Source of the DNA: Candidatus Obscuribacteraceae bacterium
Lineage (GTDB): Bacteria > Cyanobacteriota > Vampirovibrionia > Obscuribacterales > Obscuribacteraceae
Length of the DNA: 64,000 nucleotides
Reading direction: 5' to 3'
NCBI GenBank assembly: GCA_044226015.1
Contig: JBGAHS010000001.1
Span: 1,312,001-1,376,000 of the forward strand
Made by a program: the position numbers and the translations under genes. How positions within the stretch are numbered: the stretch's first letter is position 1; every line of letters begins with the position of its first letter. Positions 42,416 through 62,348 of this stretch are shown here, piece by piece. A model generated the notes under the pieces. The model had not been told where the DNA came from and ran no database searches. It saw only the letters and a list, made by a program, of their open reading frames with translations.

Positions 42416-42652
42416 CCGCAAATTCGGATCGATACCGATCGAGTTACGAAATTGGATCGATACCGATTGAGTAGCAAGAATATCTGTGCCTTCAGAAGCG
42501 AAGATTTTCCTTAGGCTGGATGGAGTTGTTGAAAACGCAAATTTGGATCGATACCGATCGGGTTGCGAATTTGGATCGATACCGATTGAGTAAGATTATC
42601 TGTGCCTTCAGAAGCGAAGATTTTCCTTAGGCTGGATGGAGTTGTTGAAAAC
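42416..42652. repeat. Two copies of a 116-119-bp intergenic repeat, each with two GGATCGATACCGAT cores
   Basis: ATCGATACCG at 42428, 42456, 42547, 42575; TATCTGTGCCTTCAGAAGCGAAGATTTTCCTTAGGCTGGATGGAGTTGTTGAAAAC twice. Confidence 0.9.
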
Positions 42653-42666
42653 ACGAATTGCATGCG

Positions 42667-42721
42667 GTTGAGATGCAGTTGAGATGCAGTTGAGATGCAG
42701 TTGAGATGCAGTTGAGATGCA
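42667..42721. repeat. 11-bp tandem repeat (GTTGAGATGCA)x5
   Basis: Perfect copies read directly. Confidence 0.95.
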
Positions 42722-42830
42722 GTGTAACCGTAGGGGTGAACGGTTTTGCCAATAGCTTGCAATCCGATGGTGTAAGCCACCCGGCGGAGCGCCCACCCAG
42801 ATCACTAGCATGTGGCGGCTTGCTCCGTGG

Positions 42831-42933
42831 CGTCCAGTTCCGTCCAGTTCCGTCCAGTTCCAGTTCCGTCCAGTTCCGTCCAGTTCCAGTTCCGTCCAGT
42901 TCCGTCCAGTTCCGTCCAGTTCCGTCCAGTTCC
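42831..42933. repeat. 10-bp tandem repeat CGTCCAGTTC (about 9 copies, two 6-bp partial units)
   Basis: Read directly. Confidence 0.95.
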
Positions 42934-42947
42934 GCAGAGGTTTAAAG

Positions 42948-43322
42948 TTACAATGAAGCCGCACTCTTTCCTACGATCTGCTCCACGCGTGCGGATAGTT
43001 CTTTAAGGTTGAAAGGTTTTGCCATATAGTCTGTGGCGCCGGCATCCATCAAGGACTGTATTTCTTTTGCCTCTGTTCTTCCTGTTAACATCAATACTGG
43101 CATTTTCCCGCCTTCAGTTCGATATTGCCTGAGAACATCTATGCCGTTCATTCCAGGAAGTTGCCAATCCAAGACTACGATATCGAAAGCACCGAAACGC
43201 ATTTGTTCAAGAGCTTCTGTTCCTGTAAAGACAGCTTCAACTGTGTGTTGCTGAAACATGAGCCAATCTTGAAGCGTTTCCGACAGATCCGTGTCATCTT
43301 CAACCAGCAAAATGTTAGCCAT
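42948..43322 (-). CDS. Single-domain response regulator (REC)
   Basis: LLVEDD, LDWQLPGMNG, LTG, YMAKPF. Confidence 0.92.
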   Translation of the reverse strand: MANILLVEDDTDLSETLQDWLMFQQHTVEAVFTGTEALEQMRFGAFDIVVLDWQLPGMNGIDVLRQYRTEGGKMPVLMLTGRTEAKEIQSLMDAGATDYMAKPFNLKELSARVEQIVGKSAASL

Positions 43323-43351
43323 ATAGAAGTTCCTTTTAGCGAGCGGACTGT

Positions 43352-45934
43352 TTACCCTTCGATGACAATTTGGCTACGTCCATTTGCTTTCGCTATGTAT
43401 AGCCTTTTGTCTGCATGTAAAACAAGATCGTGAATAGTGTTTCCGTCTTCCGGAAAATCGACCATTCCGGCGCTGAACGAAGTGTAAAAGGGTTCCCCCT
43501 GGTCGCCCTGAAATTCAACCTTCTTTAGTTCATCCAATACCCGGTTTAATGCCTTTTGCATCGTTTCTTTGCGCTCGTGCTTGAACGCAAGGATAAATTC
43601 TTCGCCACCCCAGCGACCTCGCAGGTCTTCAACTCGGAATCGTCGCCGTAACAATTTGCCAAAATATTGTAAAACTCGGTCGCCAGCCATGTGTCCAAAC
43701 TTGTCATTGACTTTCTTGAAGTGGTCAACGTCCATCAAGCAAAGCGAGAAGTTGAATTTGTGCCTTTCTGATTCAGAAAGCAAGGCGGTGATTTGATCCA
43801 CGAAAGCGCGGCGTAGAAGTAAGCCTGTCAAAAGGTCCCGGTCTTGTCGTTCCCGTTGCATTCTGGCTCTGTCCAGCCGTACTTTCACACGCTTCAACAA
43901 TTCCATGTTGATTACCGGCTTTGGAAGATAGTCATCGCCGCCTGAATCAAACGCTGAAAGTCTAGACGCGAGGTCCGTTTGCGCTGTAAGGAAAATGATT
44001 GGCAAGTCTTGCCATCTGCCTGTGCCACGTACTTTTTTGCAAACATCGAAACCTAGAATTCCCGGCATCATCACATCGAGAAGCATCAGGTCGGGTTGGT
44101 ATTCTTCAAGAATTTCCAGCACGTAATTTGGATTGTTTAGAGCTTTGACCAACATTCCTTCATTTCCGAGCGTGCTGGTAATCAAATCCGTGAAATCTTC
44201 ATCATCATCGACAATCAGGACCCTAGAGCGGCCTCCCTCTCTGATGGTAACCAGATGTTGTAGGGCCTGTTGAAGAGTGTCTTGCTTGTATGGTTTCTCC
44301 AGGAACAGTGATGCCCCAGCATGGGTTGCTTCGGCTCTATCATTCTCGTCGTTGTGCGAGATAAATCCTAACGGTAGAGTTTCGTACCCAACCATGCTTC
44401 TAAGCTCTCTGGCTAATTGGAACGCACTATCACGCTCATCTGGTACTATCTCAATGAGAGCTGCATCTAATTGCTGTTTTGCCGCTCTTTCGAGTGCCTC
44501 CTCTGGACTTCCTACTCCGATAATTTCTAAGGGAATACCTTGTCCAGCTGCTGTGTGCCCATGTACAGACGGATCTCCTTTACCGTTGTTGTTCAAAGAG
44601 GGCGGCTCTTTGCTGACAACGAGAACTTTTGCTTTGGCAGCATCAGGATTCAGGTTCGCCAATTCTTCGGCCGTCGGTACATAGTCCGAAAACTGTAGCT
44701 TTACGTTTTCAACTTCTTTTTTTGCTGCTAAAAGAGCGCTGTCGACGTGACCCCATTCTTCTTTGTGGTTTACGTCTGCTAGTTCCAGCATGTCTCTTAG
44801 TGAATATTCAATGCGCTCAGCGAGGTTGCCTAGCACATCGAAACCACAGGACCGGGATGTGCCTTTTAGGTTGTGAGACAATCTTCGTCCTTCTATCAGC
44901 AGATTGGGATCGGGTTTAGTTCGATCTACTTCCTGAATATTCTGTTCGATCTGCTTGACGCGTGATGGTAGCGACTTGGAAAACTTCTGGCGGAAACTGA
45001 GTAGCGTGGCGTCCGCGAATGCATTGAGAGTCGCTGTGGAGGGACTGCCAGGTAGTGGAGGACCAGCTTGGGAGCCGCCCCCTGGTAAGGGCACTGTAGC
45101 GGTCGGTTGTGGGACTTGCAACCCTGCATTCATATTGGCCAGGCCTGGAAATTCGTAGCTGTTGGTGTTTCCCCCGGCCACTGGCCACGGTGTATTTCCG
45201 GAGCCTGGCACTGAAGGACCCGACCAACTCATGCCATCTTTTGATGTTGGAATATTGGCAGGTGATGAGAGTGAATTTGGAAGAGAGCCGGGTGATTGCG
45301 GCAGGGGCTGGGGAATCTCGCTTGATTTGGCCACTTGCTCGGATTGTTGGTTTTGTGTGCCTATGTTTTGCGGTAACGCAGGATAGGTACCCGAAGTAAC
45401 AGAACTCTGCGCTGTAAATGAAGGCGATGACGAAGGGATGGCGGTGAAGGAGCCTGATGCTGATGGCATTGGTGTCGAGATGGACCCGCCAGGAGTCGGT
45501 ACTACTCCCATCGGCGGCGGTGTTGATTCTAACCCGCTACCTGGGAGAGCTGGAAGTCCTCGCCTCTGGTCGTGCCAGAGTGCGTCAACTTGAACCCCGA
45601 ATACGCTTGATTTTATTGGACGATGAAAGATATGGGCGACCTTCAATTCTTTAGTGATTTTTTGAAAGAACTCTGCATCTCGCCAAATCTGAGATAGAAA
45701 AGCAACCTTTAGTTCCTTTTCCTTCTGTCTCAGTTTAATAATGAATCCGACACCATCAATATCAGTCAGCTCTTCACCAACCAAAACCAGGTCCGGCTTG
45801 CTGTCCAAAATCATTTCTATAGCTTTGTGACCAGAGATTTCCTGTTCAACACTGAAATCCCGCGCCTCAAGCAGAGGCACTATAAGCGCACGTAAAGCTT
45901 CGTCTGTCTCCAGCAGGAGAACCTTTCTGCCCAT
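43352..45934 (-). CDS. Diguanylate cyclase with REC-linker-Hpt-REC-REC-GGDEF architecture
   Basis: Hpt SHNLKGTS; canonical third REC LLDVMMP; DVDHFKKVNDKFGHMAGD; RVED I-site; GGEEF. Confidence 0.9.
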   Translation of the reverse strand: MGRKVLLLETDEALRALIVPLLEARDFSVEQEISGHKAIEMILDSKPDLVLVGEELTDIDGVGFIIKLRQKEKELKVAFLSQIWRDAEFFQKITKELKVAHIFHRPIKSSVFGVQVDALWHDQRRGLPALPGSGLESTPPPMGVVPTPGGSISTPMPSASGSFTAIPSSSPSFTAQSSVTSGTYPALPQNIGTQNQQSEQVAKSSEIPQPLPQSPGSLPNSLSSPANIPTSKDGMSWSGPSVPGSGNTPWPVAGGNTNSYEFPGLANMNAGLQVPQPTATVPLPGGGSQAGPPLPGSPSTATLNAFADATLLSFRQKFSKSLPSRVKQIEQNIQEVDRTKPDPNLLIEGRRLSHNLKGTSRSCGFDVLGNLAERIEYSLRDMLELADVNHKEEWGHVDSALLAAKKEVENVKLQFSDYVPTAEELANLNPDAAKAKVLVVSKEPPSLNNNGKGDPSVHGHTAAGQGIPLEIIGVGSPEEALERAAKQQLDAALIEIVPDERDSAFQLARELRSMVGYETLPLGFISHNDENDRAEATHAGASLFLEKPYKQDTLQQALQHLVTIREGGRSRVLIVDDDEDFTDLITSTLGNEGMLVKALNNPNYVLEILEEYQPDLMLLDVMMPGILGFDVCKKVRGTGRWQDLPIIFLTAQTDLASRLSAFDSGGDDYLPKPVINMELLKRVKVRLDRARMQRERQDRDLLTGLLLRRAFVDQITALLSESERHKFNFSLCLMDVDHFKKVNDKFGHMAGDRVLQYFGKLLRRRFRVEDLRGRWGGEEFILAFKHERKETMQKALNRVLDELKKVEFQGDQGEPFYTSFSAGMVDFPEDGNTIHDLVLHADKRLYIAKANGRSQIVIEG

Positions 45935-46106
45935 TCTATGTAACTAGTCCCGCCCCACGAAATTTAATAAAGGTTATTTCGAATCATGCCCAGAAATATC
46001 GCTACTTACACTTCTCAGATAATCTTGTGCAACTTGAAGGACTTTCTGACAGCTACCGGAATTCAATTCGAAAACGAGGATTTACTGCCTAACATGTGTG
46101 GTAAAT

Positions 46107-46279
46107 TTCGATACTCAAACGGTATCGCTCGGATAAGCGACTAGTTCGATACTCAAACGGTATCGCTCGGATAAGCGACTAGTTCGATACTCAAACGGTA
46201 TCGCTCGGATAAGCGACTAGTTCGATACTCAAACGGTATCGCTCGAATAAGCGACTAGTTCGATACTCAAACGGTATCG
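46107..46279. repeat. 38-bp tandem array (4.5 copies) TTCGATACTCAAACGGTATCGCTCGGATAAGCGACTAG
   Basis: Near-perfect copies; internal inverted pairs CGATAC/GTATCG and TCGCT/AGCGA. Confidence 0.95.
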
Positions 46280-46592
46280 TTAAGATACGACACGATCCCT
46301 TGAATCGAATTCAGATAAGCAACTTGATAAAAGTTGCGGAACGATTATGAGTTCAGCGCACAAAAAAATTTAGCCAATCCAAATTGAATCGGGCGTGACT
46401 GTGAGCTGCAGATTCTGATGACTCCTTACGCGTCTGATGTCTAATACTCCATTATGCTTATTCACTTCTTTGAAGTTAGACAAATGAGGCAAGTATGGAC
46501 GCTTGTTTCACCCGTGGAAACAATTGCGTGCATACTTGAGCGTCATGACCAAATAGCTCTATGCTCAATTGAAAGATGGGCTATGTTAACCA

Positions 46593-47555
46593 TTAGACCG
46601 CTGACGGCACGAAAACCTTGGAAGGAGAAACATAGCTCTGGATAAGATTTCGATTTGGCGGTTCGGCTGAACAAAATTCAAACCAACAAGATTGATTCCA
46701 GTTTTTAGTGAGCGAATTCCAAAACAAAGCTAAGTACATCTGCACATATTTACGGCTGATTCTCTGCCAAATATTTTTTGTGGTTTGGAAAAATTGTTCT
46801 AGGGATGTGCCGATGGTTTCAATAGATGGTGGAATGCCTTGTGTTTCGCTAAGTTTGTACGATTGACCATTCCTAGACTCGATCAATCCTCTAAACTGTA
46901 GGCTCGTCAAACCCATCACCAAATCATCAAAGTTAATGCCGATAATTTCGATTAGCTCGTCAAGGGTCTGAAACTCATCTATCTTGAGACACTGAAAAAT
47001 TGATTGTTCAAGTTCGCTGAGGGAATTTAAATGATCATTCGATTGGGAATCTTTATGTTCGAGTTTGTTTAATGCAAGTTGTTCTTCTTTTGGATGTGCA
47101 TTAGCCGGAGTCTCTGAGCTCCTTCTACAAAAGAGCTCAAGAAACACTGCTGTCGAAACGAGAGGTAACTCTCGCATTCTTTCAGTGATGAAAAGCGCGA
47201 TTGTCTTGATGATGTTTTGCGCTGTCGATAGCGCTGTTCCGAAAATCTTCGCAAACTCATACGCGGAGAAGAGTATTCCTTTTTCTGTGAGCCAGAGTCC
47301 TGCAAACCATGCTCGAACTAAGCGAACTCTCGCAAAGACTGTATCAGCATATATTCTGCGTTTACGACCACAATTATCACACTCGGAAATTCTAGGATTT
47401 TGCGTAACTGTGTATTTGTCACTTCCACATCTTTCGCAATTTGGTGTTTGGAAAATCAACGATAGTGCTCTGTGACAGGATAATTCATCCGGAAACAATT
47501 TGTTGAACTCCTGCATGTTTCGCTGGAGATCACTTTCTCTTTTTTCCTTCGCCAT
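46593..47555 (-). CDS. IS1595-transposase-like Zn-ribbon/HTH protein with internal winged-helix and no recognisable DDE domain
   Basis: FPDELSC...CERCG...CDNCG...TVF...WF (IS1595-type Zn ribbon); LSELEQSIFQCL...TLDELIE...LTSLQFRGLI (DprA-like wHTH); ISRKYVQMYLALF (IS1595-like C-terminus); ATG 47555 with GAGGAG RBS. Confidence 0.65.
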   Translation of the reverse strand: MAKEKRESDLQRNMQEFNKLFPDELSCHRALSLIFQTPNCERCGSDKYTVTQNPRISECDNCGRKRRIYADTVFARVRLVRAWFAGLWLTEKGILFSAYEFAKIFGTALSTAQNIIKTIALFITERMRELPLVSTAVFLELFCRRSSETPANAHPKEEQLALNKLEHKDSQSNDHLNSLSELEQSIFQCLKIDEFQTLDELIEIIGINFDDLVMGLTSLQFRGLIESRNGQSYKLSETQGIPPSIETIGTSLEQFFQTTKNIWQRISRKYVQMYLALFWNSLTKNWNQSCWFEFCSAEPPNRNLIQSYVSPSKVFVPSAV

Positions 47556-47581
47556 GATCACGCTCCTCTTTGTTCTTTTAT

Positions 47582-47613
47582 TCTTTAAACGTTTTGCGTG
47601 TGAAAAAAGTTCA
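47582..47613 (-). promoter_or_regulatory. Putative ECF-sigma-type promoter TGAACTTTTT-N11-ACGTTTAAAGA
   Basis: Matches 5091-5122 in sequence and spacing; about 27 nt upstream of the start codon. Confidence 0.55.
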
Positions 47614-47833
47614 AAAAAAATGCTGAGAAGTTACTACTTGGGTTCTGATTTTAACTTGGCTTTGTCAAGCTATGCCTCGGTGAGAATCGTTTTTCTTCGA
47701 AAATGTCTTACGGATGCTGGTAGCGCATATGGTGGCGCTTGATTATTAGCTGAAAAGGTATTAGAGAGCAAAATTGGAAAAACTTCCTGTTGGAATTCAG
47801 CAACAGGCTAGGCAACAGGCGCTAGCGGATCAT

Positions 47834-48081
47834 AATTACTCGGACTCACTGATTTTTTTCTGGCAAGTGCTAAGGCGCCTGCGATTTTCTACCGCCAATC
47901 CTAACGCAATTATTTCCAAGCTAAAAAATTGCTCTTACTCACGGACTTTGTTTGCTGGCAAGTGCTAAGGCGCCTGCGATTTTCTGCCGCCTGTTTTAAC
48001 GCGTTTATTTACAAGCCAAAAATTACTCTGACTCACGGATTTTTGCTTGCGAGCGCCATTGCGCCTGCGATTTTTCTGCCG
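47834..48081. repeat. Diverged 93-94-bp tandem repeat (about 2.6 copies) overlapping the 3' end of the DUF488 gene
   Basis: Units start at 47834, 47927 and 48021; shared ACTCAC.GA...GCGCCTGCGATTTT. Confidence 0.8.
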
Positions 48082-48628
48082 ATGTTTCCCTCTCGGAATC
48101 TGCGTTTGCCAAGAAAAGATTGAGCTGGGTCGGGGGCTCGTCTACATGATTCGCCAAAACCAATTCTAAATAAGTTTGCAAATCACCATGCTTTCGGATA
48201 TGCAAAACATCAATCCCGGATTCAGATGCAAATTTGGAAATTAAGAGATGGCGATGGCAGCCGCTAGGATCCTCCTCTCCGCACATCACGGCAACTCTGA
48301 ATGATTTAATACCTTTCTGCAACCGTTCCATGCCACCGAGAAACTTACTCGATGCCGCGAGTTTTGCGTAATCCACGAATCCCTCGGAATCGTAAAACTC
48401 GTTTTCTTTCGGTTTACCGCCTATCTCATGACCAAGAAATACGTACTTGAAGTTCCTTTTTTTTAACTCTTGTTTCAAAAACTCACCTGTGAAGTGCGTT
48501 GCATAGCGCGAGTAAGGATTGCTCCTTACGTCTGCTACCACTTCTATTGAGTGCATAGCTAGTAGCTCGATGAATTTGTCCATCGAATAGTTTGAGTGCC
48601 CGATAGTATAGAGTCGAAGTGTGCTCAC
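48023..48628 (-). CDS. DUF488 family protein
   Basis: LYTIGHSN, VADVRSNPYSR, MCGEEDPSGCHRHLL. Confidence 0.9.
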   Translation of the reverse strand: MSTLRLYTIGHSNYSMDKFIELLAMHSIEVVADVRSNPYSRYATHFTGEFLKQELKKRNFKYVFLGHEIGGKPKENEFYDSEGFVDYAKLAASSKFLGGMERLQKGIKSFRVAVMCGEEDPSGCHRHLLISKFASESGIDVLHIRKHGDLQTYLELVLANHVDEPPTQLNLFLANADSERETSAEKSQAQWRSQAKIRESE

Positions 48629-48662
48629 GCTTTAACTAATCGAAAGCTTGTGAAAGTTCCAG

Positions 48663-50408
48663 CTATTCGGCAACCAGTTGATATATGCGGTCGAGTGCAG
48701 CGTCAACGTCAGCCGGCAACTGCACTCTTAATAGGCGCCTTTTTCGCGAGCTCAGTGCTTTGAAGTCACCGAGCGCTTGAGCTTCTTTCAGGACTGCGAA
48801 ACTAAATTTCTCTCCCGGAATTTCAACGTCTTGTTTTTCTTCGCTTGTGATTTGCAAGAAGACGCCGCTGTTTGGTCCACCTTTGTGCAACTGCCCCGTT
48901 GAGTGTAAAAACCTTGGTCCAAAACCAACAGTTGTGGCGACTTTGTATTTCTGCATTACAAAGTCGCGAATCCTTTGGAGTTTAGCCTCCAGTCTGGGGC
49001 AGCACTCAATGTATGCATTTATAGCAAAGTAGTTGCCAGGGCTTAACTGTGAGAGGTGTGCTTGAAACAATGCTCTCATCGTTTCCTTACTTCCAACTTT
49101 TGCCTTAAGTTGCTTGATGTTATCGTCGTCGGCAAACAACTCGAATCCACTTTCAATAACGAGCAATTTGTTTTCTGGAAGATACCCTTCTTCTTCGTAT
49201 TCAGCGAGTATCTCTTTGGTGAAATCTTTGCTCTCTTGCACATTTGGCTGATTGAAAGCGTTAATTCCGATAATTGAGCCGCCGGTTGCAGTTGCAATTT
49301 CCCAACGCAAGAATTCGGCTCCCAGGTGAGCCAGATCGCTCATTTCAATACGAACCACTGGTTGCCCGGCTGCCTCTAGAGCTGCGATCCGCGCATCTTG
49401 ATCGGGACAGGTTTTCGTTGAAAGTCGCACATAAACAAACAATCGATCAGAACCATAGTCAGATGGTTCGCTTAGCGTTTCCGCTGCAATCGGTATAATT
49501 CCTTTGCCGTCTTTGCCAGTGCTCTCTGCAATGAGCTGTTCAAGCCAGGTGCCAAGGCTGTGCACCGCAGGTGATGTCACTAATGTGACTTTATCTCTAC
49601 TTCCTCTGGTTAGGACACCAAGGATTGTACCAAGCAACACGCCTGGATTGTCTCCCGGAGATACTTCTGCACCACACATCTTTTGCATGCTGTGGGCATG
49701 TTCTAGAATCTCTTTGACGTTAAGTCCCATTACTGTCGCTGGAACCATACCGAAGTTTGATAGAGCTGAGAATCGACCGCCAATACTTGGTCGTCCGTAA
49801 AAGGTGTGAGCAAACTTCAAATCCTTTGCTTTCTTCTCCATCGAAGAGCCAGGATCAGTGATAGCTAAGAAATGTTCTCCTGCTTTGTCACCAACGATTT
49901 TTTTTGTTTCGTCATAGAAGTATTGGCACAGAACGTTAGGTTCTGTCGTGCTTCCAGATTTGCTCGCCACGATGAAAAATGTTTTGCCTGGATCAATCTG
50001 GTTTCGGATACTGAGCACCTGTGCGGGCACTACTGAGTCAAGAACCAACATTTCGGGATGACCAGCTATGTTCCCGAATGTTTGTCGCATAACTTCTACA
50101 CAGAGGCTGCTTCCACCCATTCCCAGCAAGACAGCATGCTTGTAATTCTTAGACTTGATCTCGCTGCTGAGTGCGTCAAGTTTGCCGAGGTGCTCAAGTT
50201 GTTCATCAACAATGTCGAGCCAGCCTAGCCAGTCGCCCTCATCTTTGTTGCTCCACAAGCTAGCATCTTTTGACCAGAGACGTTTGGGAAAATCTTTGCT
50301 GGTAAGAGCGGCGAGTTCAGCTTTTAATGCTTCTTCGAATTTTCCTAGCGAATGGCTGGTTGCACCGGTTTTGACATTCTGCGCCACACTGCTATCGGCG
50401 TTTCCCAT
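48663..50408 (-). CDS. pgi: Glucose-6-phosphate isomerase (PGI-domain type seen in Tal-Pgi fusions)
   Basis: LGMGGSSL, VASKSGST, IGGRFSALS, EQLIAESTGK, FNQPNVQESK, GPRFLHSTGQLHKGG; ATG 50408 preferred over the ORF-track start 50450. Confidence 0.88.
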   Translation of the reverse strand: MGNADSSVAQNVKTGATSHSLGKFEEALKAELAALTSKDFPKRLWSKDASLWSNKDEGDWLGWLDIVDEQLEHLGKLDALSSEIKSKNYKHAVLLGMGGSSLCVEVMRQTFGNIAGHPEMLVLDSVVPAQVLSIRNQIDPGKTFFIVASKSGSTTEPNVLCQYFYDETKKIVGDKAGEHFLAITDPGSSMEKKAKDLKFAHTFYGRPSIGGRFSALSNFGMVPATVMGLNVKEILEHAHSMQKMCGAEVSPGDNPGVLLGTILGVLTRGSRDKVTLVTSPAVHSLGTWLEQLIAESTGKDGKGIIPIAAETLSEPSDYGSDRLFVYVRLSTKTCPDQDARIAALEAAGQPVVRIEMSDLAHLGAEFLRWEIATATGGSIIGINAFNQPNVQESKDFTKEILAEYEEEGYLPENKLLVIESGFELFADDDNIKQLKAKVGSKETMRALFQAHLSQLSPGNYFAINAYIECCPRLEAKLQRIRDFVMQKYKVATTVGFGPRFLHSTGQLHKGGPNSGVFLQITSEEKQDVEIPGEKFSFAVLKEAQALGDFKALSSRKRRLLRVQLPADVDAALDRIYQLVAE

Positions 50409-51316: not shown

Positions 51317-51450
51317 AGTAACGGGTCCTCGCTTGATTTCGCCCAATCAATGCGATCCTCATTCACTTATCGCATCAAAGAGGAATGACATTTTTGTAAC
51401 ATTTTTACACCTTGAAATTTCGAAGGTCAAAATCAAATGCCGAGTAGCAA

Positions 51451-51659
51451 TTGGAAAATCGAAACGCAAACGGTAGCGATTGGAAAATTGAAACGCAAAC
51501 GGTAGCGATTGGAAAATCGAAACGCAAACGGTATCGATTGGAAAATCGAAACGCAAACGGTATCGATTGGAAAATCGAAACGCATCGATTGGAAAATCGA
51601 AACGTAAACGGTAGCGATTGGAAAATCGAAACACAAACGGTGTCGATCGGAAAATCGAA
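51451..51659. repeat. 29-bp tandem array (about 7 copies) TTGGAAAATCGAAACGCAAACGGTA(G/T)CGA
   Basis: Units at 51451, 51480, 51509, 51538, 51567 (7-bp deletion), 51589, 51618. Confidence 0.95.
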
Positions 51660-53010: not shown

Positions 53011-53440
53011 GTCGGGACGGCAAGCGAGATCCGCCAATGGGTGGCGTGAGGACAGTAAGCCAGATCTGGCAGCTGGAGCCAGGCGGCAGGGCTTCAATCA
53101 GATCTGGCAGCTGGAGCCAGGCGGCAGGGCTTCAATCCAGATCTGCCAGCCGGAGCCAGGAGTGAGGACAGTAAGCCAGATCTGCCAGCCGGAGCCAGGA
53201 GTGAGGACAGTAAGCCAGATCTGCCAGCCGGAGCCGGGAGTCAGGACGGCAAGCGAGATCCGCCAATGGGTGGCGTGAGGACCGTAAGCCAGATCTGCCA
53301 GCCGGAGCCGGGAGTCAGGACGGCAAGCGAGATCCGCCAATGGGTGGCGTGAGGACCGTAAGCCAGAGCTTGCAGCTGGAGCCAGGAGTCAGGGCTGCAA
53401 GCCAGATCTGGCAAGCTGGAGCCAGGCGGTAGGACGCTAA
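53011..53440. repeat. GC-rich mosaic tandem array, 11 units of 35-39 bp anchored on AGATC
   Basis: AGATC/AGAGC at 53027, 53062, 53100, 53139, 53178, 53217, 53256, 53291, 53330, 53365, 53404. Confidence 0.9.
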
Positions 53441-54401: not shown

Positions 54402-54765
54402 GCGTGAGGCTGTCTCATCCGCCACGGATGCGTGGGGCTGACTCCTCCGTTATGGATGCGTGCTGCTGCTTCATCTGACATGGATGCGTGGGGCTGTCTC
54501 ATCGTCCATGGATGCGTGGGGCTGTCTCATCCGCCGGATGCGTGGGGCTGTCTCATCCGCCATGGATGCGTGGGGCTGTCTCATCCGCCACGGATGCGTG
54601 GGGCTGTCTCATCTGACATGGATGCGTGGGGCTGACTCCTCCGACATGGATGCGTGCTGCTGCTTCATCTGACATGGATGCGTGGGGCTGTCTCATCGGC
54701 CACGGAAGCGCCTTGCCCGTCGGGAAGGTGAGCCAACGTAATCATGTCGGATGAAAAAGCCCCAC
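54402..54765. repeat. REP-like 28-bp tandem array (about 11 copies) GGATGCGTGGGGCTGTCTCATCCGCCAT plus one inverted copy
   Basis: GGATG at 54426 through 54676, about every 28 bp; CATCC-loop-GGATG hairpins; inverted copy CATGTCGGATGAAAAAGCCCCAC at about 54743-54765. Confidence 0.9.
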
Positions 54766-54778: not shown

Positions 54779-55624
54779 TCATTCGTCGTGACTTGCGTGT
54801 GTACTCCAGAGTTCACCGCCTGGGCGGTTGACCTGGTTGATCCAGTCTCCGAATTTTCCACCAGATTTCCAGATGAGTTTTGGTGGTCCACTCTTCGTCA
54901 ATGAATAAACGGTGTACATGTGATAGTTCGAGTCGTTCAATTTTTCGTGTATAAATGCGATTTCCTGTTTGCCATCGTGATCTACATCGGCAGCTGAAAC
55001 TGTATCCAGCTTTTGTCCGGTTTTGGGATCGACGACAGTGACATATTCCATCGGCGGAGTGTATTCGGTCAATACGACTCTTCCGTTCTTTAACCATTGC
55101 ATGGCGGCTATCCATCGTCCGTAAATTTTACCCATGCGAAGAACGTAGCCGCCAACTTTGTGATTTTTCCACTCCAAGCTGTTCAAGAATCCTTTATCCA
55201 TTGAGCTAGGCGGCAGATGTGATGTCCACGACTTTACTGTATCGGCCTTGTTTGCACTGTCCCCTTTTGTATTGTCACTCACAACTCCGTGCTTAACTTT
55301 GTTTGCACTCTCTGCTCTATCAGCGACGTCATCACCGTCGTTCTTATTCGCATTATTGCTCTTGGGGATGTCGCCCTTACTTGTTGTGGCAGGAGCCGCC
55401 GCTAGCATGAGACCCACCGTATCTTTAGCGGTCTTTCTAATTCCGATGGAGTCGGAGCTTTCGTTGTAGGCAGTTTCTTTTCCATAAAAGTTTGCAGAAT
55501 CGGCTTTGCGATTCGAAACACAATCACACATGGTTGGTGCTGCTAAAACACGAGAAAAGGTAGTCGGCGCCAAAACGAAGAACACCGAGCAAAATATGCA
55601 GCTGATTTGCGTGGTTCGGTCCAT
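54779..55624 (-). CDS. Secreted hypothetical protein with one FG-GAP/EF-hand-like Ca-binding motif
   Basis: Signal peptide; ADVDHDGKQEI. Confidence 0.6.
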   Translation of the reverse strand: MDRTTQISCIFCSVFFVLAPTTFSRVLAAPTMCDCVSNRKADSANFYGKETAYNESSDSIGIRKTAKDTVGLMLAAAPATTSKGDIPKSNNANKNDGDDVADRAESANKVKHGVVSDNTKGDSANKADTVKSWTSHLPPSSMDKGFLNSLEWKNHKVGGYVLRMGKIYGRWIAAMQWLKNGRVVLTEYTPPMEYVTVVDPKTGQKLDTVSAADVDHDGKQEIAFIHEKLNDSNYHMYTVYSLTKSGPPKLIWKSGGKFGDWINQVNRPGGELWSTHASHDE

Positions 55625-55883
55625 AAATCCATTTTTCCACTGAGTGCCTTGATTGTGCTCAGGGTTATCACCGTAATTGCATTAAATTAAATTTCCATCA
55701 CGAAGTCCTGATGATAATAATTACACTTTTAGACCTTTTCATCGTCGCATCAAAAAGACAAAGCTCTCGAAACCTTTGTTATTGTTGTCGTTGCTTAGGA
55801 CACCCCAGTATCCAAGATGAACTGCGTTCAATGATTTTTGATTCGCATCTAATAGATCATGGGTCTGTCAACGGAGACAGGCA

Positions 55884-57368
55884 GTGCTATTCAATAGTTT
55901 TACCTACTTACTTTTCTTACCACTTGTGGCGTTGGTCTATTGGACGGCTCCGCAACGAGCGAGACATCTCATCCTCCTGCTAGCGAGCTATTTCTTCTAC
56001 ATGAGCTGGATGAAGATCTACGGCTTGCTTCTGTTCGGATTGACTGCAATCAATTATTTGCTTGGAATTTCTCTGGCAAGCTCGAAGTCGCATTCATCTC
56101 GCCGATTGATTTTTATCGCTGGATTGAGTGCAAATTTGGGCTGTTTGGCGCTTTTCAAATATACCAATTTCTTCATTGACTCGGTCCGGCAAATTAATGC
56201 CGCGCTTGCGCATGCCTTTGGTGTGCCTATTGTCGCTGATCTAGCCAGTCTGCCTGATCTACCCATCATTCTTCCACTGGGGATCTCATTCTTTGTTTTT
56301 GAATTCATCCACTATCTAGCAGATGTGTTCAAGGGCGAGAAGCCTATGAAGTCGCCTGTCAGATTTGCACTGTTCGCGGCATTCTTTCCTTCGCAAATTG
56401 CTGGTCCCATCAAGCGTTTTGAAGATTTCGAAAACCAGCTCACTGCGTCAGCACAATTTTCGAAACAACTGTTTCAATCTGGACTTCTGCTGATTTTGCA
56501 GGGACTCTTTAAGAAGGTCGTACTGGGCGATAATCTTGCTCCGCTAGTGCAGGCAGGTTTTTCTGCCCCGCAAAATATGGGCACCTTCGATGCCTGGATT
56601 TGCGTTTTTGCCTTTGCTTTGCAAATCTACTACGATTTCTCTGGTTACACCGACATCGGTCGTGGATCGGCTATGGTACTCGGTTTTACGCTTCCCGAAA
56701 ACTTCAATATGCCTTACGTGGCGAAGAGTCTAAAAGAGTTCTGGCATCGCTGGCACATCAGTCTGTCCACATGGCTTCGCGATTATCTTTTTATTCCCAT
56801 GGGCGGCTCACGCAACGGCAAGGTCGCTGCCGCGCGGAACCTAATAGTGACCATGCTCTTGGGTGGTCTCTGGCACGGAGCATCATGGCATTACGTAGCC
56901 TGGGGTGGCTTCCATGGCAGTGGGCTTGCGGTAAACAGAGTTTTGGATACATTAATTGAGAAATCGCCTGCGCTCAGCCGCGCTTCACAGACCTGGTGGT
57001 GGAACCTATCTGCGCAATTGTCAACATTTTTGCTCGTTTGTATTGGCTGGGTTGTTTTCCGCGCAAGTGACATGAATGAGGCAATGGGTGTATACCAATC
57101 GATGTTCACGATGCGCCCATCGACTGGACCAGAAGCAACAATTGCCGAGCTTTTTCTGCAGTCGAGTTTGCCAGTAGCACTGATACTATATGTGGTGACA
57201 TACACGCTGACAAAGTACTTCCCAACTTGGGGGCTTCATTTGCCAGAATCTCTGCGCAATCTTCGCTTTCCAATTTATGCCAGAGCGATCGCGGTTGCCG
57301 GATTCGCTCTTGTTGTTGTTGGCTTAGCACCACAACGCTCCATTCCGTTTATTTATTTCCAATTTTAA
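55884..57368 (+). CDS. MBOAT family O-acyltransferase (AlgI/PatA-like)
   Basis: LPLGISFF, QIYYDFSGYTD, FWHRWHISLSTWLRDY, GLWHG, FIYFQF. Confidence 0.95.
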   Translation: MLFNSFTYLLFLPLVALVYWTAPQRARHLILLLASYFFYMSWMKIYGLLLFGLTAINYLLGISLASSKSHSSRRLIFIAGLSANLGCLALFKYTNFFIDSVRQINAALAHAFGVPIVADLASLPDLPIILPLGISFFVFEFIHYLADVFKGEKPMKSPVRFALFAAFFPSQIAGPIKRFEDFENQLTASAQFSKQLFQSGLLLILQGLFKKVVLGDNLAPLVQAGFSAPQNMGTFDAWICVFAFALQIYYDFSGYTDIGRGSAMVLGFTLPENFNMPYVAKSLKEFWHRWHISLSTWLRDYLFIPMGGSRNGKVAAARNLIVTMLLGGLWHGASWHYVAWGGFHGSGLAVNRVLDTLIEKSPALSRASQTWWWNLSAQLSTFLLVCIGWVVFRASDMNEAMGVYQSMFTMRPSTGPEATIAELFLQSSLPVALILYVVTYTLTKYFPTWGLHLPESLRNLRFPIYARAIAVAGFALVVVGLAPQRSIPFIYFQF

Positions 57369-57383
57369 GAACCCTTCAGTAGA

Positions 57384-59045
57384 TTGAGTAAAATGGTTGA
57401 ACTAAAAGACAAAATTGAATCAGGTATTCAAAAAACGCAGGCGGAGGCGAGTTCGAGATCGCTAGCTGGAGGCGTAGCTACTCTAGCCAGCGCTGCTCTG
57501 CTGAGTGTACTCATGATGGGTCTGACGTGGGGCGTCGTTGAGTGTATTTTTGCTGCAGCGCATGTTGGCGAGGATACAGTTGCACAGCCGGATCCGCTGC
57601 TGGGATACTCTCATCTCGAAAATCAGATGATTACTTTTAGATCTGAGGGCTATTCGCGCTCGCTGATAAACCCAATGGGATTCAGAGATCGTATATACGC
57701 CGTTCCTAAGCCTCCTGGCGTCAAGAGAGTGTGCATCACTGGAGACTCTATGACTATGGGTCTGGAGGTTCCGCTGTCTGCGACATATCCAAAGCTCCTG
57801 GAAAAACGCTTTCAAGCCGAAGGCAAGAACATTGAAGTGGTAAATTGTGGCATGTCGGGAACTGGAACGGGACAGCAGTTTTTGGGATGGCGTCAATCTA
57901 TTTCAAGACTCCAGCCCGATATGTTGATCATCGGTTACCACCTTGGGGATACGGACGACAATGTAGGCGGTGGAACGAATCCTCCTCGCCCAACATTTCT
58001 AGTTGATGCTAAGAACAATCACTTGAACGTAGATTTCGCTGATGTGGATAGATTCTTTGCTGGGGAGAACTCTAGATTTTATTCTTCGTTTGGATGGTTT
58101 CGCCGGAACAGCCGTGTGCTTGCGGTTTTGAATAAAATGGATCTCGATTTGCACGCCGATCCTGCACATAAATTGGTGATGAATGTAATCGGAAAGCCTA
58201 TTGGGGCTGCCTGGTCATCGCTGTTGAAAAAACTACCCGCGGGAAATTGGCAAATTCAAGAGCGTCGAGCTATTGTTGCTGACTTGCTGCCGGGATCTAA
58301 TTCTGTTCCCAAAGTGAATGCACCAGCTTCACCACCACCACCTTCACCAACACCAGCTTCCGATGTGACTGCAGCCGCGGTGTCCGTGAAGTCGGGAGAC
58401 GCAGCAACATCAACCTCTGATCCGGCAACAGAAGCTTCGGCAACGGCAGGTTCGGCAAAGCCGGCTTCGGCAACAGCCGCTTCGGCAAAGCCAGCTTCGG
58501 CAAAGCCAGCTTCGGCAAAGCCAGCTTCGGCAACGCCAGCTTCGGCAACGCCGGTATCAGGATCTTTATCAGCTTCAGGTGCGAGTTCTGAGGCAGTGCC
58601 AGCAACCGCTGCATCCGTAGCGATTCCTACTGCCGTATCTACAGTTCCTTCAACAGAAGCAAAGGCGATGCCTGTGGAACATGGACAAGCAGACATCGAT
58701 TTATATCGTGGCATGATCTGGCTCCATAACCAAAGAATGCAGGTCACTCTATCCATCCTGAAAGAGCTCAATGCTGAATGCAAAGCTCACAATTGCAAGT
58801 TAGTAGTTGCTGGTCTTCCGGCATACAACAATACGATCATTTATTATCGTGAGCTCCAAGATATTCGCAAGCTTGCTGAGAAAGAGCACTTCGGATTTGT
58901 TGAGTGCTGGACTCCGTATCCAAGGCGAGGACCGCTGGAAGACAGCAAATACCATTTCAGCACGCACTTTAATTGTGCTGGTCACCAAGTAATGGCTGAA
59001 ACTCTCTATAAAAGGGTTTTTCAAGACCCTTCGATGTCCCTATAA
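57384..59045 (+). CDS. SGNH/GDSL hydrolase-fold protein, likely O-acyltransferase partner, with Ala/Ser/Pro-rich insertion
   Basis: TM helix; TGDSMT, NCGMSG, THFNCAGH motifs; follows the MBOAT gene. Confidence 0.8.
   Translation: MSKMVELKDKIESGIQKTQAEASSRSLAGGVATLASAALLSVLMMGLTWGVVECIFAAAHVGEDTVAQPDPLLGYSHLENQMITFRSEGYSRSLINPMGFRDRIYAVPKPPGVKRVCITGDSMTMGLEVPLSATYPKLLEKRFQAEGKNIEVVNCGMSGTGTGQQFLGWRQSISRLQPDMLIIGYHLGDTDDNVGGGTNPPRPTFLVDAKNNHLNVDFADVDRFFAGENSRFYSSFGWFRRNSRVLAVLNKMDLDLHADPAHKLVMNVIGKPIGAAWSSLLKKLPAGNWQIQERRAIVADLLPGSNSVPKVNAPASPPPPSPTPASDVTAAAVSVKSGDAATSTSDPATEASATAGSAKPASATAASAKPASAKPASAKPASATPASATPVSGSLSASGASSEAVPATAASVAIPTAVSTVPSTEAKAMPVEHGQADIDLYRGMIWLHNQRMQVTLSILKELNAECKAHNCKLVVAGLPAYNNTIIYYRELQDIRKLAEKEHFGFVECWTPYPRRGPLEDSKYHFSTHFNCAGHQVMAETLYKRVFQDPSMSL
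58433..58552 (+). repeat. In-frame 15-bp tandem repeat (ASAKP/ASATP)
   Basis: GCTTCGGCAAAGCCA units. Confidence 0.85.
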
Positions 59046-59056
59046 GACCTAAAAGC

Positions 59057-59313
59057 TTAGATCGATACCGGTTGAAAATCGAGTTTGAAGCGAGGCGCTT
59101 GCCAATCGAAAATTAGATCGATACCGGTTGAAAATCGAGTTTGAAGCGAGGCGCTTGCCAATCGAAAATTAGATCGATACCGGTTGGAAATCGAGTTTGA
59201 AGGGAGGCGCTTGCCAATCGAAAATTAGATCGATACCGGTTGGAAATCGAGTTTGAAGGGAGGCGCTTGCCAATCGAAAATTAGATCGATACCGGTTGGA
59301 AATCGAGTTTGAA
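59057..59313. repeat. 56-bp tandem array (4.6 copies) TTAGATCGATACCGGTTG(A/G)AAATCGAGTTTGAAG(C/G)GAGGCGCTTGCCAATCGAAAA
   Basis: Units at 59057, 59113, 59169, 59225, 59281; between convergent genes. Confidence 0.95.
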
Positions 59314-59364
59314 TCTTGTCTGTCGAATAAAAATTCTAAGCTATCTAGGGTATCAAAGTGTCAG

Positions 59365-60657
59365 CTAATTCGTGTCGGCGTTATACCTGGCTCTATCAGC
59401 ATCTGCTCTGGCTCGATCCGACGCATCTCTGGCCAGATTAGCGTAGTTTTGCGCCTGAGTACCACCATTGTAGGCCGCAGATTCTGCTCTCTGCGAAGCA
59501 TAGTAAGCATCATTGGAGGCATAATATGCCTGGTCTGCCCAATTTTTTCGACTCCATTTATCACTTCCATAACGCGCTTTCTCTGCATAGTTGCGTGCTC
59601 TGGTTGCTTCGTTCTCAGCCCTTTGATAAGCGTTGTAAGCAGTCGCTGTTGCTTGCGAATGATCGGTCGGTGGCGCCGCTGCACTTCCGCTGCCACCACC
59701 CATAGTGCCACCGAAAGAAGGACTGCCTCCTTCGAAAAACACTCGAAGGAGATCTTGTTTGGTCATACCAGGAAACATGCCGGACATTCCCCTGTTTTGT
59801 TGAGGTGGGGACGGGCGGGTATAGGCATTTGGTGTGTAATTTTGTTTCGCTACAGGTTGCTGTGGTACTCTCGATACGGGAGTCCTCGACCAGTTGCTTT
59901 TGGTATCGATAGCATTTAGCGCTTGTTCGAGATTCTGCATTGTATTAGCTCCATTAGAGGAACCATTTCTCGCAAGGTTTGGCGAACCGTACTGTTGCTG
60001 TTGTCCATAGTTGTTTTGCGGTTGACTAGCGTACTGGTGAGACTGCATTGCTGAATTCGGTTGAGGAACATACCGCTGTTGAAAGTTGTTGGAGTGTTGG
60101 GCTCCGAATTGTGTGGTTTGGTTATAAGGCTGTGCTCTACCGCCAAATGAATAGACATTTCGGGCTCCGGTATAGTTCGAGCCGGAAGCTCCGTTGTTAT
60201 TTCCGTAAGTATAGTTCGAGCCGGAGGCTCCGTTGTTATTTCCGTAAGTATAGTTCGAGCCGGAAGCTCCGTTGTTACTTCCGTAAGTATAGTTCGAGCC
60301 GGAAGCTCGGTTGTTATTTCCGTAAGCATGGTTCGAGCCGGAAGCTCCGTTGTTATTTCCGTAAGTATAGTTCGAGCCGGAAGCTCCGTTGTTGTTTCCG
60401 TAAGCATAGTTCGAGCCGGAAAATCTGCCGTTGTTATTTCCAAAGGATCTGCTGGTGCTGTTGCCATTGTTGTTGGAGTAAGACCTATTCGAACCACCGA
60501 ACCCGCTGTTAAATGAGCTGTTTGATTGTCCAAAACTACCGTTGTTATTATTATCTGCGGGAAAGTACTGAGCATTTGCAGATGAACTAGAAAACATTGC
60601 TAGAACGAGCAACGAGGAAAGAACCAAATTTGTCTTCGCTGGTTTCATTTCGATCAC
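59365..60657 (-). CDS. Secreted Asn/Gly/Gln-rich low-complexity protein with Ala-rich helical C-terminus
   Basis: Signal peptide; 13-aa repeats NNNGASGSNYTYG. Confidence 0.7.
   Translation of the reverse strand: MIEMKPAKTNLVLSSLLVLAMFSSSSANAQYFPADNNNNGSFGQSNSSFNSGFGGSNRSYSNNNGNSTSRSFGNNNGRFSGSNYAYGNNNGASGSNYTYGNNNGASGSNHAYGNNNRASGSNYTYGSNNGASGSNYTYGNNNGASGSNYTYGNNNGASGSNYTGARNVYSFGGRAQPYNQTTQFGAQHSNNFQQRYVPQPNSAMQSHQYASQPQNNYGQQQQYGSPNLARNGSSNGANTMQNLEQALNAIDTKSNWSRTPVSRVPQQPVAKQNYTPNAYTRPSPPQQNRGMSGMFPGMTKQDLLRVFFEGGSPSFGGTMGGGSGSAAAPPTDHSQATATAYNAYQRAENEATRARNYAEKARYGSDKWSRKNWADQAYYASNDAYYASQRAESAAYNGGTQAQNYANLARDASDRARADADRARYNADTN
60170..60442 (-). repeat. In-frame 39-bp tandem repeat (about 7 copies)
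   Basis: GTATAGTTCGAGCCGGAAGCTCCGTTGTTATTTCCGTAA units. Confidence 0.9.
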
Positions 60658-61727
60658 TGATTCTTCGGTAATTTGACGAGATGCATTACACTCGTATCCG
60701 GAATGGGCTCGCCATCACAACTTTGTTCAATCGATTGCCAGTTGAATTCGTTTGAATTCAAACGAGTGAATACGTTTTTTGCAAGTGTGTTTTTGCCTTG
60801 AGAAGACACCCCTGCGAAACTAAGTGTCCATTGCTCCCCATTGTGGTCCCATTTGCCATATCCAAAGCCACCGTCACAATCAAAATGCCATGAAACTAAC
60901 GAGCTAGTTTTTGGATCCCATCCGATGATTTGTTTATCTACTAATTCACTATTATCTGGCTCTTTGAATATGGTTTTAGCCTCGATAAATTTGTGGTTTT
61001 CGGTCCACTTAATTTCAACGGAGCCTGATTCTCCCGGCTTTTCAATCCTCCAATTTCCAATCATCCAGGACATCTCGAGTAATTGGTCATGCGATTTCAA
61101 ATTCTGAATTAGTGTCTCGGTAGCTTCGCTAATGAGCCAACCCGCATTCTCTTTTACGAGCACCACAGATATTTTGGACGTAGGCAGTTCCGCTTCACCG
61201 CTTTTGCGAGTGAGGTCTCCTGTAGCGATTGCGACGTGTGGTGCTGGAAAAGAAACTGTCTCCAGATGAATTGCTATTTTGTCAGCAGCCCGGTTCTTGA
61301 ACGCTGCATTAAAGTAGTCTTGCAGCTGCCCTTTGCCCTGAAATGACTCGCCATCTTGATTAATGAATGTAGCGTTGGGATTCCAGAGAGAAAGCAATTT
61401 CGTTGCATCGCCGAGATTAATGCATTCGGCAAGGTTCCGCAATGTTCCGCGGACTTCTTCGCCGATGTCATCGCTTGTGACAATATTCGTGGACTTTTTT
61501 GTTTGTACATCCGACTCCGAAAGTTTGCTGATTTGTGATTTCTTTCCAGAAGCGGATTTCTTGTTTGCGGATTTCTTGTTTGCAAGTTTCTTGTTTGCTA
61601 TATCATCCCCAGTTTGTTGAACTTTCTTCGGTTCGGTTGATGCTTCTACCGCCCCAGCTGGTAAGCAATTCTCAGCGCTAAGAGAATAAAACAAAAGGGC
61701 TATTGTCAGTGCTATTTGTGTCTTCAT
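60654..61727 (-). CDS. Secreted SnoaL/NTF2-like (SgcJ/EcaC, DUF4440) domain protein
   Basis: INLGDATKLLSLWNPNATFINQDGE...VLVKENAGWLI; second domain WMIGNW...QIIGWDP...SWHFDCDGGFG. Confidence 0.75.
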   Translation of the reverse strand: MKTQIALTIALLFYSLSAENCLPAGAVEASTEPKKVQQTGDDIANKKLANKKSANKKSASGKKSQISKLSESDVQTKKSTNIVTSDDIGEEVRGTLRNLAECINLGDATKLLSLWNPNATFINQDGESFQGKGQLQDYFNAAFKNRAADKIAIHLETVSFPAPHVAIATGDLTRKSGEAELPTSKISVVLVKENAGWLISEATETLIQNLKSHDQLLEMSWMIGNWRIEKPGESGSVEIKWTENHKFIEAKTIFKEPDNSELVDKQIIGWDPKTSSLVSWHFDCDGGFGYGKWDHNGEQWTLSFAGVSSQGKNTLAKNVFTRLNSNEFNWQSIEQSCDGEPIPDTSVMHLVKLPKNQ

Positions 61728-61809
61728 AATGACCCGCAGGAAAAGGAAATATTATAAAGCATTCTATTTGTCATTGAATCGGCGAGGGACGGATCTCTTT
61801 GCATCGACG

Positions 61810-62348
61810 CGATCACCCAACCGGTATCGATTGAAAATTTGAATGACCTGGCAGCGAGAAAATCATAAAGTGGAATGCGTAAGATTTTCCCGGATTAGGT
61901 TGTAAGAGAAACGATCACACAACCGGTATCGATTGAAAATTTGAATGACCTGGCAGCGAGAAAAACATAAAGTGGAATGCGTAAGATTTTCCCGGATTAG
62001 GTTGTAAGAGAAGCGATCACCCAACCGGTATCGATTGAAAGTTTGAATGACCAGGCAGCGAGAAAATCATAAAGTGGAATGCGTAAGATTTTCCCGGATT
62101 AGGTTGTAAGAGAAACGATCACACAACCGGTATCGATTGAAAATTTGAATTACCTGGCAGCGAGAAAATCATAAGTGGAATGCGTAAGATTTTCGCGGAT
62201 TAGGTTGTAAGAGAAGAGATCACCCAACCGGTATCGATTGAAAGTTTGAATGACCAGGCAGCGAGAAAATCATAAAGTGGAATGCGTAAGATTTTCGCGG
62301 ATTAGGTTGTAAGAGAAGCGATCACCCAACCGGTATCGATTGAAAATC
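61810..62348. repeat. 102-bp tandem array (5.3 copies) beginning CGATCACCCAACCGGTATCGATTGAAA
   Basis: Units at 61810, 61912, 62014, 62116, 62217, 62319. Confidence 0.95.

What the first reader, a model, noticed from the sequence alone, without database searches (positions are those of the whole stretch)
42416..62348. Five unrelated intergenic tandem arrays share one core motif, CAAHCGGTATCGAT
Seen: arrays with unit lengths of about 119 bp (42416), 38 bp (46107), 29 bp (51451), 56 bp (59057) and 102 bp (61810) differ in most of their sequence, yet each carries CAA(A/T/C)CGGTATCG(AT) in one orientation or the other, about 26 copies in total counting variants. Flanks fall into two subtypes: ...GATTG(G)AAAAT (29- and 102-bp arrays) and ...GATCYAATTT (119- and 56-bp arrays, reverse strand). 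In the 38-, 56- and 102-bp arrays the terminal partial unit still contains the core, giving n+1 cores around n near-identical linkers. Inference: the core may be a protein-binding site arrayed for chromosome organisation, a nicking or recombination site that drives local amplification, or a handle in repeat-derived RNAs. I know of no named family matching it.
Basis: partly seen in the sequence, partly recalled or inferred. Interest (0 to 1): 0.8.

Follow-up and report, generated by a model that had tools for sequence, protein, structure and literature searches.

The report
Transposase relic seeds local palindrome territories
These repeat arrays are copies of one short DNA palindrome that crowd around a nearby gene descended from a transposase; copies of that gene in these uncultured relatives of cyanobacteria often sit in their own patch of such palindromes, which the gene's protein likely spreads nearby even though it has lost the usual cutting site.

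Summary
In detail: 26 motif hits against 0.36 expected, 25 of them in five intergenic arrays. The 'core' is one local variant of a ~28-bp palindrome (AAACTSNAN-CG-NNNN-CG-NTNSAGTTT), found at 402 sites in 99 clusters genome-wide. It encodes an IS1595-derived protein (Zn ribbon, HTH, winged helix) without the DDE core. The genome has eight paralogues, each with a site 90-510 bp downstream; 37 of 99 clusters lie within 25 kb of one (4.9% of the genome). The central four bases track the nearest paralogue. Gene-centred clustering recurs in relatives (G012 21/23 sites; G041; G013). Palindrome excess: 67/88 genomes with the gene, 1/16 without. Paralogues group by genome and lack shared neighbours, so the gene moves, but slowly. 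Best reading (inferred): a cis-acting protein binds its palindrome and promotes repair-driven local copying, like RAYT/REP but territorial. Binding, cutting and empty sites are not shown. This scan noted the protein family and its upstream palindrome before in another genome (e1-2955481); that note's listing does not mention territories or arrays.

The parts
46593..47561 (-). 322-aa IS1595-derived protein: Zn ribbon (C42/C45/C61/C64), HTH, conserved F-[KR]RS-x-ETPA-x-HP-x-x-E motif, DprA-type winged helix (about residues 180-240) and IS1595-like C-terminal helices (SRKYxQxY); no DDE core. One of 8 paralogues in this genome.
47603..47614 (-). Conserved upstream motif TTGAACTTTTTT, also upstream of other paralogues and homologues; promoter-like by inference
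   Evidence: window sequence; alignments
46107..46279 (+). 38-bp array, 5 palindrome cores; the gene-proximal site, about 315 bp downstream of the stop
42417..42659 (-). 119-bp array with two cores per unit (4 cores), in a convergent gap
51444..51659 (+). 29-bp array of head-to-tail cores with no linker, in a convergent gap
59057..59313 (-). 56-bp array, 5 cores, convergent gap; letter differences in run X2
61809..62347 (+). 102-bp array, 6 cores around 5 linkers
47834..48081 (.). 95-bp tandem repeat without the core, 270-520 bp upstream of the gene; one of several core-less arrays near the gene (link uncertain)

Best explanation
The arrays are local copies of a ~28-bp palindrome that clusters around a gene for an IS1595-derived protein lacking the DDE core, and the protein likely binds this palindrome mostly near its own gene and likely promotes its local copying through host repair. 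SHOWN: the gene and the site travel together; sites pile up within about 50-100 kb of the gene, densest close to it; the central four bases differ between territories; the gene has moved to new places in each lineage and is under purifying selection; the central 14 bp are conserved while their edges are indel-prone. INFERRED: (1) a dimer reads the two half-sites with its Zn-ribbon/HTH; (2) it acts in cis because it loads soon after translation beside its gene, as described for Tn5, Tn10 and IS911 transposases; (3) tight binding or bridging of two sites, or nicking by the new R-R-S-x-E-T motif, provokes breaks or fork stalls; (4) repair by fold-back gives the perfect arms, repair by slippage between two cores gives core-only and n+1 arrays, and rarer events plant a core at a new nearby gap or move the gene with its site.
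For: G000: all 8 paralogues have a site 90-510 bp downstream. Without contig joins, 37 of 99 clusters lie within 25 kb (4.9% of the genome), 52 within 50 kb (9.5%) and 65 within 100 kb (17.9%). Centre type against nearest gene: 0 of 5000 permutations reach the observed value (72 clusters). Out of sample: the C4 paralogue had no known sites and proved to have its own variant (35 of 45 ATAG-centred sites within 100 kb). G012: 21 of 23 sites within 70 kb of its 3 genes. Closed genome G041: 14 of 34 listed sites in the first 3.3 Mb lie within 50 kb of one gene. G013: every listed site lies in C13:727-855 kb around its gene or on C24; core arrays 9 in 138 kb near the gene against 0 in 200 kb of controls. 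Upstream palindrome with arm >=12 bp in 41 of 57 non-G000 gene loci, perfect arms up to 32 bp with locus-specific outer sequence; control 2 of 400. Palindrome excess in 67 of 88 genomes with the gene and 1 of 16 without. Paralogues monophyletic by genome (G000 8 of 8, support 100; G024 13 of 13, support 99); few shared neighbours; dN/dS 0.09-0.16. Sites favour convergent gaps (34 of 87, 19% expected) and avoid divergent ones (10 of 87, 30% expected). G069 against G076: core substitutions 1.3% against 8.7% background, gaps 12.5% at 10-19 bp from the centre against 2.4%. 14 of 55 arrays have core-only periods of 27-29 bp.
Against: No catalytic centre is identified: the DDE core is gone, no acidic triad is conserved, and fold searches return only HTH or winged-helix matches. 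No clean empty site was found among the ~33 site positions compared between G069 and G076, so insertion at a new place was not seen. No residue-to-site covariation is visible by eye. 27 of 99 G000 clusters lie more than 120 kb from any gene, and G041 has a genome-wide tail. In G065, winged-helix paralogues have few nearby sites, and two of four showed none as the top word. 21 of 88 gene-bearing genomes show no excess with the pattern used (12 of them in one genus). Seven G000 genes were found by looking in site-rich regions, so their proximity is not an independent test. Related genomes are not independent.
Confidence: 0.5

Rival explanations
1. Founder diffusion: the gene arrives with one palindrome (its operator or element end), and copies spread from that founder by short-range host recombination and slippage. 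The protein binds the site but need not act in cis or drive the copying.
For: It predicts gene-centred density and inherited variants equally well. Sister paralogues L031 and L033 share a variant. No catalytic motif is known. Core-less arrays are also dense near the genes in G000 and G012, which could mean these regions are slippage-prone.
Against: Paralogues only 32-41% identical to the window protein still have tight territories. The core stays conserved at distant sites. Genomes without the gene mostly lack the excess.
Confidence: 0.22
2. Selected chromosome organiser: each paralogue binds and bridges its own sites to fold or insulate a ~100-kb domain (parS-, matS- or Noc-like logic), and the arrays are kept because more sites bind more protein.
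For: The core is conserved and the gene is under purifying selection. The protein has two DNA-binding modules and no nuclease core. Most of the family lacks ParB_N (3 of 41 genomes match).
Against: Gene number runs from 0 to 19 per genome, positions are not conserved, and there is no tie to dnaA or the terminus. No ATPase partner showed up among shared neighbours. It does not explain how the sites arise.
Confidence: 0.17
3. Ordinary transcription factor: the palindrome is an operator, the upstream site gives autoregulation, and the scattered sites are a regulon.
For: A palindrome lies just upstream of a conserved promoter-like motif in 41 of 57 loci; the protein has HTH and winged-helix domains.
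Against: Sites avoid divergent gaps and favour convergent ones. In G000 the proximal site is downstream of all 8 genes. A regulon would follow gene function, not distance from the regulator.
Confidence: 0.08
4. Unrelated microsatellite-like expansions or assembly artefacts that share a word by chance.
For: The genome is rich in tandem repeats (387 arrays with period >=20).
Against: 26 hits against 0.36 expected; 341 PWM sites against 6 in the reversed genome; present in an independent run; conserved across the family.
Confidence: 0.01

Closest known systems
RAYT / REP / REPIN systems (Bertels & Rainey 2011, PMC3116915; bioRxiv 10.1101/2021.07.10.451892; passages read)
   Same: A transposase-derived gene with short extragenic palindromes in its immediate vicinity; several gene-plus-repeat groups per genome; tandem clusters; slow turnover and vertical persistence between close relatives.
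   Different: The protein is IS1595-derived, not an IS200-like HUH/Y1 enzyme, and has no recognisable catalytic core. REPIN doublets are reported as randomly distributed, whereas these sites form gene-centred territories. The unit is one palindrome in direct arrays, not an inverted doublet. RAYTs are described as non-jumping; this gene has multiplied and moved within lineages.
IS1595-family insertion sequences (definition from PMC8101967 passages; Pfam PF12760, PF12762)
   Same: Zn ribbon, HTH and C-terminal helices are homologous (hhalign 99.3%, E 2.8e-20).
   Different: The DDE domain is replaced by a new motif plus a winged helix. No terminal inverted repeats or 8-bp target duplications were found. 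Inverted repeats of true IS1595 elements in these genomes do not resemble the half-site.
cis-acting bacterial transposases Tn5, Tn10, IS911 (PMC6182136, passages read)
   Same: Offers a known route by which a protein acts mainly near its own gene.
   Different: Those act on their own two ends; here the apparent reach is tens of kilobases and many sites, and cis action is inferred only from position.
parS/ParB, matS/MatP, Noc sites (recalled)
   Same: Palindromic sites clustered in a ~100-kb region.
   Different: No ParB_N match, no link to the origin or terminus, several territories per chromosome, each centred on its own gene.
HIP1 of cyanobacteria (PMC4390886, abstract read)
   Same: A CG-rich palindrome in a sister lineage, with a proposed enzyme-plus-repair origin.
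   Different: HIP1 is an 8-mer that is frequent across the genome and tied to methyltransferases; this is a ~28-bp intergenic site confined to regions.

Membership tests
RAYT/REPIN | HUH/Y1 tyrosine transposase (PF01797) | tested here: not met
   0 matches in G000, which is 92% complete; the adjacent protein is IS1595-related
RAYT/REPIN | Cognate palindromes in the immediate vicinity of the gene | tested here: met
   8 of 8 paralogues in G000; 41 of 57 other loci
RAYT/REPIN | Repeats randomly spread through extragenic space | tested here: not met
   37 of 99 clusters in 4.9% of the genome
RAYT/REPIN | Unit is an inverted REP doublet | tested here: not met
   Solos and direct tandem arrays of one palindrome
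IS1595 insertion sequence | N-terminal Zn ribbon | tested here: met
   PF12760 in 8 of 9 aligned members at E<=1, best 4.7e-7; four cysteines 99-100% conserved
IS1595 insertion sequence | DDE catalytic domain (PF12762) | tested here: not met
   No match in G000; the ELDE and TDG motifs of true transposases L127, L130 and L135 are absent
IS1595 insertion sequence | Terminal inverted repeats and 8-bp target duplication | tested here: inconclusive
   In six related G001 copies similarity starts at the palindrome and ends near the stop, with no second end seen; the copies are only about 68% identical
parS/ParB | ParB-type CTPase in the genome | tested here: not met
   No ParB_N match in G000 (92% complete) and matches in only 3 of 41 genomes
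parS/ParB | Sites near the origin | tested here: not met
   dnaA is at C6:816 kb; the nearest clusters on C6 are at 417 kb and 51-73 kb
CRISPR array | Unique spacers between repeats | tested here: not met
   Units within the arrays match at 87-99%; no Rfam hit
HIP1 | Short palindrome frequent across the whole genome | tested here: not met
   Regional, and 2 of 99 clusters fall in ORFs
any protein-site system | Protein binds or cuts the palindrome | not testable with these tools
   Needs EMSA, ChIP and nicking assays

The most novel reading that the evidence does not exclude
A new class of cis-acting 'territory writers': a transposase that discarded its DDE core, gained a winged helix and a new R-R-S-x-E-T active or clamping centre, and now writes and maintains its own palindrome variant across ~100 kb around its gene. 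It would divide one chromosome into several gene-addressed domains and raise tandem-duplication rates within them (core-less arrays are 3-4 times denser there in G000). Forms without the winged helix amplify the site only right beside the gene, so the winged helix would set the range.
Probability: 0.3. Interest if true: 0.92.

Novelty: categorically new. Interest (0 to 1): 0.8.

Why it matters
How short bacterial palindromes arise and spread is a long-standing question, so far tied mainly to RAYTs. This is an independent gene-plus-palindrome system in which each repeat variant can be assigned to one gene by position, which makes origin and spread directly testable with one gene and a 28-bp site. 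It also poses a clear biochemical puzzle (spread without a DDE core) and gives a genome-scale picture of how far a bacterial protein may act in cis. The family is large: 518 clusters at E<1e-30 and 88 of 104 genomes of the family.

Tried and rejected
parS/ParB, RAYT and an intact IS1595 domain in G000: no matches. Abutted terminal repeats of IS1595 as the origin of the palindrome: the inverted repeats at L130 and L135 do not resemble the half-site. Tyrosine nucleophile: Y276 is His in three G000 paralogues. Fold searches of the full model and of a winged-helix-less homologue gave only HTH or winged-helix matches (best Z 9.7 and 4.7); this does not show a new fold. Homodimer prediction: no answer. 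No RNA holder listed. Rfam: none. Residue-to-site covariation: nothing visible. Empty sites between G069 and G076: none clean. C11-C10 adjacency: no end overlap, only shared 18-19 bp core variants, so statistics were repeated without joins. Core-less array enrichment did not replicate in G069 (7 of 21) or G041 (0 of 2), and G013 numbers are small. A second linker motif gave 35 hits, 34 beside a core, none as an independent cluster. The search for related loci could not use A1. The plasmid search and paper search gave nothing useful. The family tree is the quick search, not the finished careful one.
Full report
1. Observation. The window is G000:C11:1312001-1376000. TRF finds the five arrays at the stated places. 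CAAHCGGTATCG with one mismatch gives 26 hits, 25 in the arrays, against 0.36 expected. The flank subtypes and n+1 cores read as described. Run X2, from another study and year, holds 0.95 of the words and its contigs break at the same arrays, so they are real; copy number is not shown. The organism is a Melainabacteria member by the Atlas clusters of one of its proteins; the name Obscuribacterales comes from an earlier scan note on this genome and was not tested further.

2. The core is part of a larger palindrome. The exact 14-mer has 50 copies, all in the last 34 kb of C11 or the first 10 kb of C10, and at most 2 in each of 40 relatives. Of 387 arrays with period >=20, 50 carry a CG-NNNN-CG centre at least twice. 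A symmetrised matrix gives AAACTSNAN-CGRTAYCG-NTNSAGTTT, with 341 sites against 6 in the reversed genome. With the C4 variant added by a pattern built after seeing it, there are 402 sites in 99 clusters. Two clusters fall in ORFs; of 87 classifiable ones, 34 are in convergent gaps (19% expected) and 10 in divergent gaps (30% expected). Fourteen of 55 arrays have core-only periods of 27-29 bp, and similarity at array ends extends a median of 16.5 bp from the centre, with a broad spread. The unit is therefore about 28-30 bp.

3. A gene at the centre of each cluster region. Comparing proteins among site-rich regions gave one family with a member in most of them; the window's member is 46593-47561. 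All eight paralogues have a site 90-510 bp downstream. Without contig joins, 37 of 99 clusters lie within 25 kb of a paralogue (4.9% of the genome), 52 within 50 kb and 65 within 100 kb. With joins, 27 lie beyond 120 kb, 24 of them of the GTAC type. The central four bases follow the nearest gene: ATAC 70 of 75 sites near the window gene (counting C10 as its continuation, which is assumed), ATAT 29 of 31 near C1:1137 kb, ATAG 35 of 45 near C4:84 kb, TTAA 7 of 8 near two sister paralogues. At cluster level, 0 of 5000 permutations reach the observed association. Seven genes were found by looking in site-rich regions; the C4 paralogue was not, and its territory is an out-of-sample confirmation.

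4. Relatives. The family occurs in 88 of 104 genomes of the family, up to 19 scored copies each, and as 518 clusters at E<1e-30. In 41 of 57 non-G000 loci a palindrome with arm >=12 bp lies about 80-230 bp upstream, centred on CGATATCG, CGTTAACG, CGAATTCG or CGATAACG, with perfect arms up to 32 bp whose outer sequence differs by locus; the control is 2 of 400. G012 has 21 of 23 sites within 70 kb of its three genes. In closed G041, 14 of the 34 listed sites in the first 3.3 Mb lie within 50 kb of one gene, with a genome-wide tail; only 50 of its 64 sites were listed. G013 has 94 sites; all listed ones are around its gene or on C24, and its arrays have the same n+1 build. An excess of >=10 sites over control is seen in 67 of 88 genomes with the gene and 1 of 16 without; genus g35 mostly lacks it with this pattern (3 of 15). 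These genomes are related and often incomplete. In G065, four of five paralogues without the winged helix have arrays directly upstream, while winged-helix forms have few scattered sites.

5. The protein. It aligns with true IS1595 transposases over the Zn ribbon, HTH and C-terminal helices (hhalign 99.3%). The ELDE and TDG motifs of L127, L130 and L135 are replaced by F-[KR]RS-x-ETPA-x-HP-x-x-E and a DprA-type winged helix. Conserved residues are mostly R, S, T, K and Q; E160 is the only near-invariant acid. The model is confident (pLDDT 92.5) but matches only winged helices or HTHs. Paralogues group by genome (G000 8 of 8, G024 13 of 13, G007 4 of 4; quick tree of 64 rows) and share few neighbours, so the gene has been copied to new places in each lineage. 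Between G069 and G076 (90-95% identical), all three genes and their sites are orthologous and dN/dS is 0.09-0.16, so movement is slow and the protein is maintained.

6. How sites change. In that pair the central 14 bp differ at 1.3% of positions against 8.7% in other intergenic DNA, while gaps reach 12.5% at 10-19 bp from the centre against 2.4%. The events include 7-14 bp insertions at the core edge and 33-bp gains or losses of a core; they are few. No clean empty site was seen. Core-less arrays are also enriched near the genes in G000 and G012, but not in G069 or G041.

7. Mechanism. Shown: co-occurrence, gene-centred density, territory-specific variants, conserved core with unstable edges, and a mobile but selected gene. 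Inferred: the protein binds the palindrome as a dimer, acts near its own gene (cis action through coupled transcription and translation is described for Tn5, Tn10 and IS911; PMC6182136, passages), and provokes repair events that perfect arms, duplicate cores, capture linkers and sometimes plant a new site (0.5). Rivals: diffusion from a founder site by host processes (0.22), a selected domain organiser (0.17), and an ordinary regulator (0.08). Binding, cutting and expression are untested.

8. Comparison. [quoted passage not shown] This system fails the tests for the enzyme, the distribution and the unit. It fails IS1595 membership on the DDE domain (definition in PMC8101967, passages), parS on ParB and position, CRISPR on spacers, and HIP1 (PMC4390886, abstract) on length and spread. 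parS, matS and Noc features are recalled. No supplements were read.

9. Novelty. Ten full-text searches (listings seen) showed no description of this protein or palindrome; the library lacks most subscription papers. I agree on the anatomy. The gene is stable between close species but not across genera, and the site is downstream in G000. The territories, their variants and the arrays are not in that note's listing.

10. Verdict. A real, family-wide gene-plus-palindrome system with gene-centred territories. The link between gene and site is well supported; the mechanism is a best guess. Novelty: categorically new, with RAYT/REP as the nearest analogue. Interest 0.8.

Noticed in passing
G000, within 50 kb of the eight family genes (e.g. 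window 53011-53435, 54402-54710, 47834-48081): Tandem arrays without the core are also enriched near the genes: 10.8-13.3 per 100 kb against 2.9 far away. Seen in G012 (23 of 35, p=0.003), not in G069 or G041.
   Followed up: partly
L173, L174, L175, L177 (G065); L129 (G007): Shorter paralogues without the winged helix carry 35-37-bp arrays (about 40 bp in L129) of the palindrome directly upstream; 4 of 5 in G065.
   Followed up: partly
window 23042-42340 (+): A 6432-aa ORF; its first 4999 aa give only a weak DUF2807 hit.
   Followed up: no
G000 and 40 relatives: ParB_N matches in only 3 of 41 genomes of this class, so these bacteria may segregate chromosomes without a canonical ParB.
   Followed up: no
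window 16816-19707 (-): A 963-aa Eco57I/N6-methyltransferase-like gene.
   Followed up: no
G000 C10:2543-4822 and C10:5649-7262: A duplicated gene start, each copy next to an identical 83-bp core array: a possible core-bounded segmental duplication.
   Followed up: no
G016:C5:1828783 and 1840439 (L133): Two inverted, frameshifted IS1595 copies about 11 kb apart, with a palindrome 4.5 kb away.
   Followed up: no
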